Origin: a virus
Lineage: Duplodnaviria; Heunggongvirae; Uroviricota; Caudoviricetes
DNA: 64,000 nucleotides
IMG/VR virus record: IMGVR_UViG_2703718787_000017
Reading direction: 5' to 3' (one strand)
Positions 12,001 through 15,000 of this stretch are shown piece by piece (positions within the stretch are counted from its first letter, which is position 1; every line of letters starts with the position of its first letter). A program made the position numbers.

Positions 12001-15000
12001 TATGGTTACTCCACCTTCTGAGTATGGTATCGCCATGTATAACCCGGACGGTGAGATGATTTATCATGGCGAAATGATGCTGCTTGACGCGAAGTTAATA
12101 CCTGTTGATATCAAATTTGAAAAGGACCTTGGATATCCATGCGCAATCATGCCTGCACTGGTCGGGTATTATAACTGGAAAAGAACTCCTTATGATCGAC
12201 CGATTTATACCACATCCACTGGTGCTACAGGAAATAAAATATATTCCTGTGAGCATTATTCCGGCGGTGCAACATGGGATATTCGAAAGCCGTATATAGA
12301 TAAGGTCCTGGTTATTAATACATCAGTATATGATTAGTTGAAGCGAGTCTTTAATATTCATTTAAAATGTCTAAAAAGATGTATTATTAAAAAGTTTAGC
12401 GTGTTATCTGAATACAGGATATCTTAAATGAAGAGTATAGCAACACTGGTTGTGTGTGCAATCTCCGGGATTGCCTGTGTAAATTTATCTGCACATGCAG
12501 CAGAAGGAAACCATACAATTTCTCTGGGGTATGCGCACTTTCAGTTTCCGGGACTGAAGGATTTTGTAAAGGATGCGACTGCTCATAACAGGGAGACTTT
12601 CAGTCATTTCGTCAACAGAAACTACTTTTCTTCATTGGGCGAATATACAGATGGTCGGGTCAGTGGATATGAAGGCAAGGATAAAAATCCACAGGGCATT
12701 AATATCAGGTATCGCTACGAGATAACGGATGATTTTGGCGTTATCACCTCTTTTACATGGACGCGTTCTCTCACTAACTCACAGACATTTATTGATGTGC
12801 AGTCAGCCGATCATACCAGGAAGATTAAGAATCCGGCAGCTTCTGCCAGAACGGATATCAGGGCGAATTACTGGAGTCTGTTAGCGGGGCCTTCATGGCG
12901 GGTTAATCAGTACATGAGCTTATATGCGATGGCAGGGATGGGCGTTGCTAAAGTTAGCGCTGACCTGAAAATTAAGGACAATATTAACAGTAGTGGCGGA
13001 TTTTCTGAAAGCAACAGCACGAAAAAAAACTCCCTTGCGTGGGCTGCAGGTGCACAGTTTAACCTGAATGAGAGTGTTACACTGGATGTGGCTTACGAAG
13101 GTTCCGGCTCTGGCGACTGGCGCACGAGTGGAATTACTGCTGGCATTGGCCTGAAATTCTAACCTGTATCCGGTAACCGTTTACTACCCGCTGTGATGGC
13201 GGGTTTTTTATTGCCCGTACAGGGCAAAAACCGTAAATTATGCGTGGGTGCCTTTCGGCTGATGGCTGGAGGGTGAACCTGAAGGCCTGATGTGGAAAGG
13301 CCCCGAGTCAACTTAACGTTAACCCGAGGCCCTAACACTTCGTACCTTGACAAGTAGAAGGTTAGCGCCTCTCCACTCAGGAGGCAAGCGCTATGTCGCA
13401 AAAATCGCTTATCACCGTCACAATTTGTATGACGGTTATCTTCACTATCTGGATGTTGCACGGTTCGCTGTGTGAGTTCCGGCTGAATTTGTGGGGAGCG
13501 GAGTTTGCGGCGTTCTTACAGTGTAAGCAGTAGGAAAACCGCGACGGGGACGAAAGTCCCCGTCAACTGGTTGCTGAGGTTCAGCCGATATGGCACCCGT
13601 TTCAGGTGAGAGAATGAACGATAAAATTCTCCGGTATATGCAGCGTGTGGTGAGAAATTCCCGCAACCCTGAATTTATGAATGAAGTTAAAGACGCCTGC
13701 CTTAAAAAGCAGGCGTTTTGTTTTGAGGCACCTGATGGCTTTCTGGTGCTGCGTTCTGTGCTCAGTGCTGATGGTATCCCTTATGTTCTGGTGTTGCTGG
13801 GCGTGTGTACGGGGAGTAACAGCGTTGAGCGTTATCTGCCGGAGGTGAAGACATTAACCCGTCTGGCTGGCGGACGTTGGGCTGAATTTCATACGGCAAG
13901 GCGGGGATTTATCCGGCTGGGAAAACGTCTGGGCTTTGAGCGAATGCCGGATGATGAGGATGGCTTCATGGTGTTCAGGATAGCGGTCTGACTGCCACAG
14001 TTTTCATCATCGTGTTTAAACCAACATTGCAATTCACATTCTGACCCTGCTCCGGCAGGGTTTTTTTATTATCCAGGGGGCCATTATGGGTGGAAGTAAA
14101 GGTGGTGGTGATACCAAAGTAAAACCAACAGCAGCGCAAATAGCACAGGAAGAAGTGGCCTGGAAAGGGTGGCAGGATTACAAAAATATCCTCCGCCCGG
14201 CTGAAGATAACTTCATGGAAAAGGTCGATGACCTGAACAGTGAGCAGCAGTACGACAATATCGCTGGCACCACAAATCTGGGGTATCAGAAACAGTTTGG
14301 CGAAGCACGGAAGGAGCTGGCGGGTAATCTTGCTCAGTCCGGTGTTGACCCGTCCAGTGGTCGCTTTAACGCGGTAATGAATGCGAACCAGAGTGATCAG
14401 GTAACCGGGCAGATTGACACAACCACACGGGGGCAGGTATCGCAGGCAGATAAGTATGTTGCCGGGCTACAGGATGTTGCAGCTCTCGGTTCAGGTCAGA
14501 AGGCGGATGCGTTACAGAGTTTTAACTCGCTGGCAGACAGCAGTCTGGCAAAAGCTAAATCGGACGCACAGGCTGCGTTTACGAAACAGCAGGGGCGAGC
14601 CTCTCTTGTTGGCGCTGGTTTGGGTGCGGTAGGTGCATATGCGATGCATAAGGCTGGTGGTAGCGGAGGAAGTGGCGGTGCTAAAACACCGGGCACCGGC
14701 GCTAATGCCATTCAGCATCAGGCTCAGAACTGGAGACTGTGATTATGGAGTACGGTAAATACGAAACACTTGCGAGATACGGTTATACCGGAGCTGCCCG
14801 TCCACAGGGTGACTGGCAGACGTCAGCAGCGCTGACACGCCAACAATACGACGACTGGCGAACCAGATATTTGCCCCGCGTGGCAAGGCTGGCTGACCTT
14901 GGCGAGAACAACAGCCTGATGAATGCACAGCTTGCCCGGGTGGGCGGCCTTGCCACTTCCAGTCTCCGTACAGCGCAGATGGCGCAGGATAACCAGATGG

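What the first reader, a model, noticed from the sequence alone, without database searches (positions are those of the whole stretch)
13393..13533. Hok-family toxin gene hidden in the lom island (missed by the ORF track)
Seen: 46-codon ORF with strong RBS whose product has the Hok/Gef pattern (TM helix, SLCEF, AEFAAFL) and a downstream fold-back hairpin; the ORF track only lists implausible antisense ORFs here. Known: hok/sok type I toxin-antitoxin loci are regulated by an antisense RNA and an overlapping mok frame, so an antisense sok-like RNA is expected in 13210-13392. This is a second hok locus in addition to the hokD-like gene at 57246.
Basis: partly seen in the sequence, partly recalled or inferred. 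Interest (0 to 1): 0.55.

Follow-up and report, generated by a model that had tools for sequence, protein, structure and literature searches.

The report
Second Hok toxin–antitoxin cassette beside lom
The 46-codon ORF is a real Hok-family membrane toxin gene with its own antisense "Sok-like" RNA, carried as a small mobile cassette in a Shiga-toxin prophage. It is already annotated in RefSeq and its peptide has already been reported toxic, so the gene itself is ordinary.

Summary
The ORF at 13393-13533 has a GGAGG ribosome-binding site and passes Pfam HOK_GEF (33.2 bits, cut-off 22).

It is not new. RefSeq calls it "Hok/Gef family protein" (WP_000078907.1). The exact peptide is homolog 72_1589 in a 2025-26 preprint, which by its text was toxic on overexpression.

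It is a different gene from the studied hokW-sokW (33% identity) and from hokD at 57246.

The ORF sits in a roughly 373-bp cassette (13226-13598) found in 1750 of 5426 complete E. coli genomes. The cassette has the hok/sok RNA hallmarks:
- a conserved hok promoter;
- a 5' end that pairs with the 3' fbi element (13581-13598);
- a conserved antisense promoter, TTGCCT-N17-TAACCT.

That antisense promoter would drive a roughly 58-nt Sok-like RNA (13351 to about 13294).

Published Cappable-seq of EDL933 shows start sites at exactly the two homologous positions, in 8 of 8 conditions.

One canonical feature is missing: no credible overlapping mok frame. How Hok translation is released is therefore unknown.

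The gene is already known. The regulatory anatomy, the apparent lack of mok, and possible redundancy with hokW are small open points.

The parts
13186..13210 (+). Intrinsic terminator of the upstream lom gene (stem-loop plus T-run). It separates lom from the cassette.
   Evidence: Terminator scan. The lom ORF is 12428-13162, Pfam Ail_Lom.
13211..13239 (+). hok promoter: -35 TTGCCC (13211-16), 17-nt spacer, -10 TAAATT (13234-39).
   Evidence: Homology between cassettes begins exactly at ATTGCC. TTGCnn-17-TA(A/G/C)ATT was found by pattern in 59 of 71 unique cassettes, and the -10 is present in all. The consensus scanner did not call it, at 8 of 12 matches. A Cappable-seq start site lies 7 nt after the -10 in EDL933.
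13246..13598 (+). Minimal full-length hok mRNA, from the start site G to the end of fbi. The true 3' end is not determined.
   Evidence: The EDL933 start site 1378994 is the first G of GGGTGCC, which is window 13246, in 8 of 8 conditions. The blastn cassette boundary is 13226-13598. The MFE of 13246-13600 is -152.7 kcal/mol, z = -5.55. Rfam sok (RF01794) hits the leader at 13246-13404 with 37.9 bits, E=2.7e-06, below the gathering score of 59.
13246..13262 (+). tac-like 5' element, GGGUGCCUUUCGGCUGA. It can pair either with fbi or with 13292-13304.
   Evidence: Identical in the 10 E. coli copies except for a 1-nt deletion in L010. It was also the search pattern for the IMG/VR set, so its invariance there is by construction. 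Both pairings are seen.
13581..13598 (+). fbi-like 3' element, UCAGCCGA-UAU-GGCACCC, complementary to the 5' end. It closes the mRNA into an inert form.
   Evidence: The MFE of the full-length RNA closes 5' to 3'. The duplex dG is -25.5 to -31.7 kcal/mol in all 71 unique cassettes, against a mean of -16.3 for shuffled 3' regions. The 3' partner varies mostly by wobble-compatible transitions.
13292..13304 (+). Internal partner of the 5' end in the refolded mRNA that lacks fbi.
   Evidence: RNAalifold consensus and folds of RNAs lacking GGCACCC. The pairs never vary, so there is no covariation evidence.
13290..13357 (+). Candidate short leader ORFs starting at a conserved GAUGUG: ATG 13290-13316 (8 codons) and GTG 13292-13357 (21 codons). 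A GAAGG lies at 13281-85. A possible substitute for mok, unproven.
   Evidence: ORF lengths and frames vary among 71 relatives: about 23 run into hok, about 38 stop 15-36 nt before the hok ATG, and about 10 stop earlier.
13326..13371 (+). Sok-target stem-loop of the refolded hok mRNA. The loop CUUGACAA (13346-53) contains a YUNR motif, CUUG.
   Evidence: Folds. The alifold pairs 13326-38 with 13360-71 are paired in 71 of 71 sequences, with some one-sided changes. It aligns with the target hairpin of the Rfam sok model.
13294..13351 (-). Predicted Sok-like antisense RNA, about 58 nt: an 18-nt single-stranded 5' tail, a 16-bp hairpin and a UUUCC tail.
   Evidence: Fold gives -26.5 kcal/mol, z = -4.58. 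Of 45 unique variants, 37 have the same tail-plus-single-hairpin fold, and the others add a small 5' hairpin. The upper stems differ in sequence but stay paired. The EDL933 antisense start site 1379100(-) is the homologous G, in 8 of 8 conditions. The 3' end is inferred.
13359..13387 (-). sok promoter: -35 TTGCCT (13387>13382), 17-nt spacer, -10 TAACCT (13364>13359). It overlaps the hok Shine-Dalgarno region.
   Evidence: The same hexamers and spacing occur at the hokD locus of this window. TTGnnn-17/18-TAACCT is present in 71 of 71 unique cassettes.
13363..13393 (+). Hairpin that sequesters the hok Shine-Dalgarno sequence (GGAGG, 13380-84).
   Evidence: The MFE of the full-length RNA shows it. 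The probability that the SD is unpaired is 0.25 or less in every modelled state, and 0.00 when the Sok target is blocked.
13393..13533 (+). hok CDS: 46-aa Hok/Gef-family toxin of preprint cluster 72.
   Evidence: Pfam HOK_GEF, 33.2 bits against a cut-off of 22. RefSeq WP_000078907.1. Median dN/dS is 0.21 over 41 unique CDS. The exact peptide is 72_1589 in the set tested for toxicity.
13347..13475 (+). Remnant of the frame homologous to mok. It is open from TTG 13347, in the +1 frame relative to hok, and is probably not a functional mok.
   Evidence: There is no Shine-Dalgarno sequence within 17 nt. The TTG is not conserved: EDL933 and Sakai have TTA there. The in-frame N-terminal extension of hok is closed by TAG 13363-65.
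13537..13572 (+). Conserved 3' stem-loop after the hok stop codon. It is not the fbi element itself.
   Evidence: Compensatory GC/AU changes occur at 13543/64, 13544/63, 13550/57 and 13551/56.

Best explanation
This is a complete, expressed hok/sok-type type I toxin-antitoxin cassette. It is carried as a self-contained moron of about 373 bp, just downstream of lom, in a 933W-like (Traversvirus) Stx prophage.

What is shown:
- The 46-aa product is a Hok/Gef-family peptide under purifying selection.
- The cassette has its own conserved promoter.
- The transcript's 5' end (13246-13262) can pair with the 3' fbi element (13581-13598).
- A conserved antisense promoter inside the leader would give a roughly 58-nt RNA with a single-stranded 5' tail and a terminator-like hairpin.
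- Both start sites are used in EDL933, which carries a 96.9% identical cassette encoding the identical peptide.
- By the preprint's text, the identical peptide is toxic when overexpressed.

What is inferred from the plasmid R1 hok/sok paradigm (established knowledge):
- The full-length mRNA is locked shut by the tac-fbi pairing. In that state it is neither translated nor bound by Sok.
- Slow 3' trimming removes fbi.
- The 5' end then re-pairs with 13292-13304, and the Sok-target hairpin (13326-13371) forms.
- The short-lived antisense RNA binds through the YUNR loop, and the duplex is destroyed by RNase III.
- When Sok synthesis stops, Hok is made, inserts into the inner membrane and collapses the membrane potential. 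Sok synthesis could stop on loss of the prophage, transcription shut-off by an infecting phage, or prophage induction (as reported for hokW-sokW).

Where this copy departs from the paradigm:
- There is no credible overlapping mok frame.
- Translation of hok must therefore be released in another way.
- My guess is coupling to a short leader ORF (GTG 13292-13357) that ends at the foot of the hairpin sequestering the Shine-Dalgarno sequence. Alternatively, the mRNA may refold directly.
For: Toxin identity:
- Pfam above the curated cut-off.
- The conserved C-x-T, L-C-E and E residues are present.
- Median dN/dS is 0.21.
- RefSeq calls it Hok/Gef.
- The exact peptide is 72_1589. The text says only 19_179, 60_1482 and 69_1540 of the 45 tested were non-toxic.

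Cassette:
- Homology starts at the -35 and ends at GGCACCC in 10 copies from four different genomic contexts.
- It is present in 1750 of 5426 E. coli genomes.

RNA architecture:
- The full-length MFE closes 5' to 3', z = -5.55.
- The tac-fbi duplex is kept in 71 of 71 variants.
- Alternative pairing and the target hairpin appear.
- The Rfam sok model hits the leader with E=2.7e-06.

Antisense RNA:
- The promoter hexamers are the same as at hokD.
- The promoter is conserved in 71 of 71 variants.
- The hairpin has compensated upper stems in 45 variants.

Transcription:
- Cappable-seq start sites 1378994(+) and 1379100(-) appear in 8 of 8 conditions. They map exactly to the predicted +1 positions.

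Precedent:
[quoted passage not shown] It is activated on induction.
Against: - No credible mok. The canonical mok AUG position reads GUA here. The TTG-started frame has no Shine-Dalgarno sequence and is not conserved. Leader ORFs vary in frame and length.
- The hok Shine-Dalgarno sequence is predicted to be paired in every conformer modelled. Native translation is therefore not demonstrated.
- The Rfam sok score is below the gathering threshold, 37.9 against 59.
- The Sok terminator has only a UUU tract.
- No intrinsic terminator follows fbi in this context.
- The toxicity test used a foreign promoter and ribosome-binding site.
- I inferred the result for 72_1589 from the text, because the figure is not held.
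- The transcription data are from EDL933, not from this strain.
- The same data list stronger plus-strand 5' ends at -52 and -40 from the hok ATG. The model does not explain these.
Confidence: 0.85

Rival explanations
1. A translationally dead relic. The peptide is still intact and toxic if forced, but loss of mok has left the native locus unable to make Hok. The cassette would then be a silent passenger, much as several K-12 hok loci are thought to be inactive.
For: There is no credible mok. The Shine-Dalgarno sequence is predicted to be sequestered in all modelled conformers. The toxicity assay bypassed the native leader.
Against: There is purifying selection on the peptide, with median dN/dS 0.21. 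Both promoters, tac-fbi and the Sok hairpin are strictly kept in 71 unique variants across four prophage and island contexts. Both RNAs are transcribed in 8 of 8 conditions. No member of this cassette family examined has an AUG at the canonical mok position. So its absence is a family trait rather than decay in this one copy.
Confidence: 0.12
2. The locus is functional, but its main job is in the lytic cycle rather than in addiction or defence. Like hokW-sokW, it would be derepressed on induction and help permeabilise the cell. [quoted passage not shown]
For: hokW-sokW of Sp5 behaves this way: deleting it halved phage release. The cassette sits in the late/tail region next to lom, in a prophage that here lacks hokW.
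Against: There are no data for this locus. The same cassette also sits at the ends of P2-like prophages and in a non-phage island. That argues for a context-independent, selfish or defensive module. The cassette has its own constitutive promoter rather than late-operon control.
Confidence: 0.3
3. A chance small ORF. The real feature would be only a non-coding RNA, or the antisense ORFs.
For: None beyond the small size.
Against: Pfam E=4e-08, above the curated cut-off. PHROG E=2.8e-24. dN/dS is 0.21, and variable columns by codon position number 27, 17 and 36.
Confidence: 0.01

Closest known systems
hok/sok of plasmid R1, with the chromosomal hokA-E loci of E. coli K-12 (type I toxin-antitoxin)
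   Same: All share a Hok/Gef peptide with an N-terminal transmembrane helix and the L-C-E core. The mRNA is about 350 nt with a long leader. There is 5'(tac)-3'(fbi) pairing and a conserved stem-loop after the stop codon. A cis-antisense RNA of about 60 nt is made from a promoter inside the leader, with a single-stranded 5' tail and one hairpin. The target is a hairpin with a YUNR loop.
   Different: Peptide identity is only 28% to Hok R1 and 46% to HokA, the nearest K-12 relative. The peptide is shorter, at 46 aa, and ends in FLQCKQ. There is no AUG at the canonical mok position and no credible overlapping mok. hok has its own strong GGAGG. The Rfam sok model scores below its gathering threshold. 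NCBIfam HokA scores 38 bits against a cut-off of 89.
hokW-sokW of Stx2 phages 933W and Sp5 (Takada et al. 2021, PMC8621323)
   Same: It is a Hok-family type I locus carried by the same family of Stx prophages. The sok promoter layout is the same, TTGCCT-N17-TAACCT, as read at the closely related hokD locus in this window.
   Different: It is a different gene. HokW is 51 aa, starts MKQQKAM and is 33% identical. It has an in-frame Mok and lies near attR on the other strand, at 933W 58460-58734. The locus studied here lies between lom and p67, where the 933W record has no feature. The prophage in this window has no hokW at all.
Hok '60% cluster 72' (with clusters 79 and 82) of Escalera-Maurer et al., bioRxiv 10.1101/2025.08.07.668861
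   Same: The peptide is exactly homolog 72_1589. Peptides of clusters 79 and 82 are encoded by homologous cassettes that I found in a lambda-like prophage and in a urease island.
   Different: That study catalogued and tested the coding sequences only. It explicitly did not analyse the Mok, Sok or mRNA elements.

Membership tests
Hok/Gef toxin family (Pfam PF01848) | Match to the family HMM above the curated gathering score | tested here: met
   33.2 bits against 22, E=4e-08, residues 8-44 on profile positions 6-42 of 42.
Hok/Gef toxin family (Pfam PF01848) | Small peptide of about 50 aa with an N-terminal hydrophobic helix and the conserved C-x-T, L-C-E and downstream E positions | tested here: met
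   C12-x-T14, L26-C27-E28, E37 and C44 are read directly from the sequence and aligned to HokA-E and R1.
Hok/Gef toxin family (Pfam PF01848) | Toxic to E. coli when expressed | not testable with these tools
   From the literature: the identical peptide 72_1589 was in the set of 45 tested, and only 19_179, 60_1482 and 69_1540 were reported non-toxic. The figure itself is not held.
hok/sok-type type I TA locus (R1 paradigm) | A cis-encoded antisense RNA with its own promoter, complementary to the hok leader | tested here: met
   The promoter TTGCCT-N17-TAACCT is conserved in 71 of 71 variants. The predicted RNA is about 58 nt with a 5' tail and a hairpin. A published antisense start site lies at the homologous base in EDL933, in 8 of 8 conditions.
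hok/sok-type type I TA locus (R1 paradigm) | Long-range pairing of the mRNA 5' end (tac) with a 3' fbi element | tested here: met
   MFE closure of 13246-13600. The duplex is kept in 71 of 71 variants at -25.5 to -31.7 kcal/mol, against -16.3 for shuffled sequence. This is computational only.
hok/sok-type type I TA locus (R1 paradigm) | An overlapping mok reading frame whose translation is coupled to hok and blocked by Sok | tested here: not met
   The in-frame extension is closed by TAG 13363-65. The only overlapping frame starts at a non-conserved TTG 13347 with no Shine-Dalgarno sequence. The canonical mok AUG position reads GUA, AUC or AUA across the family. Leader ORFs vary in frame and length.
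hok/sok-type type I TA locus (R1 paradigm) | Rfam sok / hok-leader model (RF01794) at the gathering score | tested here: not met
   37.9 bits against 59, though E=2.7e-06 over the full model length. The hokD locus in the same window scores 115.3 bits.
hok/sok-type type I TA locus (R1 paradigm) | The antitoxin RNA neutralises the toxin, with RNase III-dependent decay of the duplex | not testable with these tools
   Shown only for hokW-sokW.
HokA equivalog (NCBIfam NF007290) | Score above the curated equivalog cut-off | tested here: not met
   38.4 bits against 89, and 46% identity to HokA.
hokW-sokW locus of 933W/Sp5 | The same gene and position as the experimentally studied locus | tested here: not met
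   33% identity to HokW. The location and strand in 933W are different.

The most novel reading that the evidence does not exclude
This cassette family (Hok clusters 72, 79 and 82) may be a naturally mok-less version of hok/sok.

In that reading, the antisense RNA does not block a mok ribosome-binding site. It works at a distance instead. Sok would sequester the 5' arm of the target hairpin (13326-38). That would free 13360-71 to complete the hairpin that buries the hok Shine-Dalgarno sequence, or it would stop a short leader ORF that ends at the hairpin's foot.

In addition, this would be an overlooked second Hok toxin in 933W/Sp5-type Stx phages. It could partly mask the phenotypes of hokW-sokW deletions and contribute to lysis and Stx release.
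Probability: 0.25. Interest if true: 0.45.

Novelty: already known. Interest (0 to 1): 0.2.

Why it matters
The finding has little weight as a discovery. The gene is annotated by PGAP, the peptide has been catalogued and tested, and both transcripts are visible in published start-site data.

It has modest practical value in three ways:

1. The reference annotations of 933W and Sakai Sp5 still lack the gene. The one functional study of Hok in these phages deleted only hokW-sokW, so a second Hok locus could confound that phenotype.

2. The cassette is very common, in about a third of complete E. coli genomes. It has sharp, portable boundaries and moves between Stx phages, P2-like and lambda-like prophages, and islands.

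3. It seems to lack the mok frame that the textbook mechanism requires. That makes it a convenient test case for how Hok translation can be gated without mok.

Tried and rejected
- Treating this gene as the published hokW. Rejected: the HokW primers and peptide start MKQQKAM and the peptide is 51 aa. The two share only 33% identity, and hokW lies elsewhere in 933W.
- TTG 13347 as the mok start. Rejected: it is not conserved (TTA in EDL933 and Sakai) and has no Shine-Dalgarno sequence.
- A conserved leader ORF from the GAUGUG site as mok. Inconclusive. About 86% of variants have an ORF reaching to within 36 nt of the hok ATG. By my rough estimate, chance for two frames is about 60%, the sequences are related, and the frames and lengths vary.
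- The consensus promoter scanner found nothing in 13100-13750. Both promoters fall below its 9-of-12 threshold. They were established by conservation and by the published start sites instead.
I used a DNA pattern scan instead.
- Literature searches by protein accession, by ECs1236/1237, and by hok+lom+Stx found nothing specific.
- An early indexing slip placed fbi 10 nt too far left. It was corrected to 13581-13598.
- I tried to identify the source strain through NZ_CP027368. That genome has the prophage at a different site. The window matches STEC strains in which the prophage abuts ynfF.
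Full report
**Observation**

The window carries an ATG-started ORF of 46 codons at 13393-13533 on the + strand. GGAGG lies 8 nt upstream. Its product is MSQKSLITVTICMTVIFTIWMLHGSLCEFRLNLWGAEFAAFLQCKQ.

- It matches Pfam HOK_GEF above the curated cut-off: 33.2 bits against 22, E=4e-08.
- It matches PHROG 251, labelled "MokW-like host killing", with E=2.8e-24.
- It hits the NCBIfam HokA and Hok models only below their cut-offs.
- The only longer ORFs here are antisense.

**Context**

Window positions 1 to about 29 kb are the late, tail and right-arm region of a 933W-like (Traversvirus) Stx prophage.

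- The 1.7 kb around the ORF is 100% identical to E. coli O104:H4 and other STEC genomes, and to phage P13771.
- The gene order is tail fibre, lom, this ORF, then a run of hypothetical genes and an 8.4-kb LPD38-domain gene.
- In this window the prophage abuts ynfF. A Qin-like region follows, with DicF, hokD and csp genes.

**Already known**

- PGAP annotates the ORF as "Hok/Gef family protein" WP_000078907.1 in O104:H4 and EDL933.
- Some phage records call it "small toxic polypeptide" or "prophage host toxic membrane protein".
- The original 933W record and the Sakai reference leave the lom-to-p67 gap empty.
- A 2025-26 preprint cataloguing Hok diversity lists the exact peptide as homolog 72_1589. 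It belongs to 60%-identity cluster 72, a high-abundance cluster, and was cloned for toxicity testing. The text says 42 of 45 homologs were toxic and names three others as the exceptions. The peptide is therefore reported toxic on arabinose-driven overexpression. I could not see the figure.
- That study states that it did not analyse the Mok, Sok or mRNA elements.

**Not hokW**

The one functional paper on Hok in these phages studied hokW-sokW (Takada 2021, PMC8621323). HokW is 51 aa and starts MKQQKAM. In 933W that locus lies near attR, on the other strand.

- The peptide here is 33% identical to HokW and HokD, 28% to Hok R1 and 46% to HokA.
- The gene at 57246 in this window encodes a peptide identical to K-12 HokD, with an in-frame Mok.
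- tblastn finds no third Hok gene in the window, so this prophage has no hokW.

**A portable cassette**

A sensitive blastn search with 13205-13615 finds homologues in 1750 of 5426 complete E. coli genomes, at 75-100% identity. Outside Traversvirus prophages the homology spans query positions 22-394, which is window 13226-13598.

The cassette occurs in four kinds of context:
- next to lom in Traversvirus prophages;
- at the end of P2-like prophages, just after ogr;
- between J and a tail-fibre gene in a lambda-like prophage;
- in a urease island.

An alignment of ten copies shows that homology begins at ATTGCC and ends at GGCACCC. A pattern scan of IMG/VR added further copies, giving 71 unique cassettes with an intact Hok ORF. 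Across 41 unique 46-codon CDS the median dN/dS is 0.21.

**RNA anatomy**

1. *hok promoter.* It reads TTGCCC(13211-16)-N17-TAAATT(13234-39). The -10 is conserved as TA(A/G/C)ATT, or TAGAAT in five copies. The predicted +1 is G13246.

2. *tac-fbi pairing.* The first 17 nt, GGGUGCCUUUCGGCUGA, are complementary to UCAGCCGA/GGCACCC at 13581-13598.
   - The MFE of 13246-13600 closes the molecule this way: -152.7 kcal/mol, z = -5.55.
   - The duplex is retained in all 71 variants at -25.5 to -31.7 kcal/mol, against -16.3 for shuffled 3' regions.
   - The 3' partner drifts mostly through wobble-compatible changes.

3. *Refolded form.* Without GGCACCC the 5' end pairs with 13292-13304. A stem-loop then forms at 13326-13371, with the loop CUUGACAA.

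4. *Shine-Dalgarno hairpin.* A hairpin at 13363-13393 buries the hok Shine-Dalgarno sequence. It competes with the 3' arm of the target stem-loop.

5. *sok promoter.* On the minus strand lies TTGCCT(13387>13382)-N17-TAACCT(13364>13359).
   - The hexamers and spacing are the same as at hokD in this window.
   - TTGnnn-17/18-TAACCT is present in 71 of 71 variants.

6. *Sok-like RNA.* The predicted RNA runs from about 13351 to about 13294. It has an 18-nt free 5' tail, a 16-bp hairpin and a UUUCC tail (z = -4.58).
   - Of 45 unique variants, 37 keep this fold and the others add a small 5' hairpin.
   - The lower stem hardly varies. The upper stems come in several different, mutually compensated versions.
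   - The 5' tails vary, as expected for specificity determinants.

7. *Rfam.* The sok model aligns over its full length to 13246-13404 with E=2.7e-06. At 37.9 bits it is below the gathering score of 59.

**Experimental support from the literature**

EDL933 carries a 96.9% identical cassette encoding the identical protein at 1379143-1379283. A Cappable-seq study of EDL933 (PMC10469882, Tables S5 and S6) lists two relevant start sites:

- A plus-strand site at 1378994 in all eight growth conditions.
- An antisense site at 1379100(-) in all eight growth conditions.

Position 1378994 is the first G of GGGTGCC, the homologue of window 13246. Position 1379100 is the G 8 nt after TAACCT, the homologue of window 13351. 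Both predicted RNAs therefore start where predicted.

The same tables list further plus-strand 5' ends at -76, -52, -40, -14 and +38 from the ATG. The -52 and -40 ends are the strongest. I cannot explain them. They could reflect processing or an internal promoter such as TTAACC-N18-TACCTT.

**The missing piece: mok**

- The in-frame extension of hok is closed by TAG 13363-65.
- The frame homologous to MokD is open only from TTG 13347. It has no Shine-Dalgarno sequence within 17 nt, and EDL933 and Sakai have TTA at that position.
- The canonical mok AUG sits in the upper 5' arm of the target hairpin. Here that position reads GUA, and in other family members AUC or AUA.
- A conserved GAUGUG (ATG 13290, GTG 13292) preceded by GAAGG could start a leader ORF. 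In this copy the GTG frame ends at 13357, six nt before the Shine-Dalgarno hairpin.
- Across the 71 variants these ORFs differ in frame and length. About 23 run into hok, about 38 stop 15-36 nt before the ATG, and about 10 stop earlier. Given relatedness, this is not clearly more than chance.
- In folding models the Shine-Dalgarno sequence stays paired in all states. It is most tightly paired when the Sok target is blocked.

**Mechanism**

With high confidence, this is a functional hok/sok-type type I toxin-antitoxin cassette: a toxin mRNA and an antisense RNA, both transcribed, and a toxic peptide. By analogy with R1, the fbi-locked full-length mRNA would be inert. Trimming of the 3' end would trigger refolding and expose the Sok target. 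Sok and RNase III would then remove the active form, and loss of Sok would let Hok kill the cell. These steps are inferred, not shown.

How translation is released without mok is open. My preferred guess is coupling to the short leader ORF, or Sok-controlled competition between the target hairpin and the Shine-Dalgarno hairpin.

The biological role is untested. It could be prophage or island stabilisation, abortive infection, or help with lysis as reported for hokW.

**Verdict**

- The gene is not new.
- Three points remain slightly interesting: the apparent lack of mok across a very common cassette family, the unexplained internal 5' ends, and the fact that functional work on Stx-phage Hok systems has ignored this second locus.

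Noticed in passing
window 57077-57470: A complete hokD-type locus. The Rfam sok hit scores 115 bits. Mok is 57189-57401 and Hok is 57246-57401, with a peptide identical to K-12 HokD. It has its own tac/fbi pair (GCGGGTGCTTGAGG / CCTCAACGCACCCGC) and a terminator. It lies in a Qin-like region, not in the Stx prophage.
   Followed up: partly
window 25180-29000: The right arm of this prophage (ead/Ea22-like, DUF4752, Ant) abuts ynfF and has no hokW-sokW. 933W has hokW there. O104:H4-type prophages at wrbA keep only a frameshifted Hok fragment after the LPD38 gene.
   Followed up: partly
window 13341-13354 (homologous to EDL933 1379091 and 1379103): Published Cappable-seq lists plus-strand 5' ends 52 and 40 nt before the hok ATG as the strongest signals for this gene. 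A possible internal promoter is TTAACC-N18-TACCTT, with its -10 at 13343-48. It would give a short hok RNA lacking both tac and the Sok target. The ends could also be processing products.
   Followed up: partly
window 13693-13716: A terminator-like hairpin with T-runs on both strands lies inside the next ORF, not after the hok cassette. No intrinsic terminator follows fbi in this context.
   Followed up: no
window 13590-13991: RefSeq starts the downstream 133-aa hypothetical protein at ATG 13590, which lies inside the fbi element. The PHROG 610 match begins at residue 9, and phage P27 annotates the later ATG 13614. The shorter form seems more likely.
   Followed up: partly
L030 4318 and 5040; L100 5544 and 5999 (IMG/VR contigs): Some viral contigs carry two diverged copies of the cassette in tandem, 450-720 bp apart.
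   Followed up: no
L006, L011-L014 (E. coli chromosomes): The same cassette sits immediately after ogr at the end of P2-like prophages inserted at different chromosomal sites (next to serS, tRNA-Leu/Cys/Gly, and yidD/ytfP). This accounts for many of the hits at about 80% identity in E. coli genomes.
   Followed up: partly
window 51821-51872 (-), 60546-60969 (+), 63447-63831 (+), 29172-29257 (-), 29708-29792 (-): Rfam gathering-level hits: DicF, two cspA-type thermoregulator leaders, and two sRNA-Xcc1 matches.
   Followed up: no
window 16759-25179: A single ORF of 2806 codons, a phage protein with an LPD38 domain, occupies 8.4 kb downstream of the cassette.
   Followed up: no
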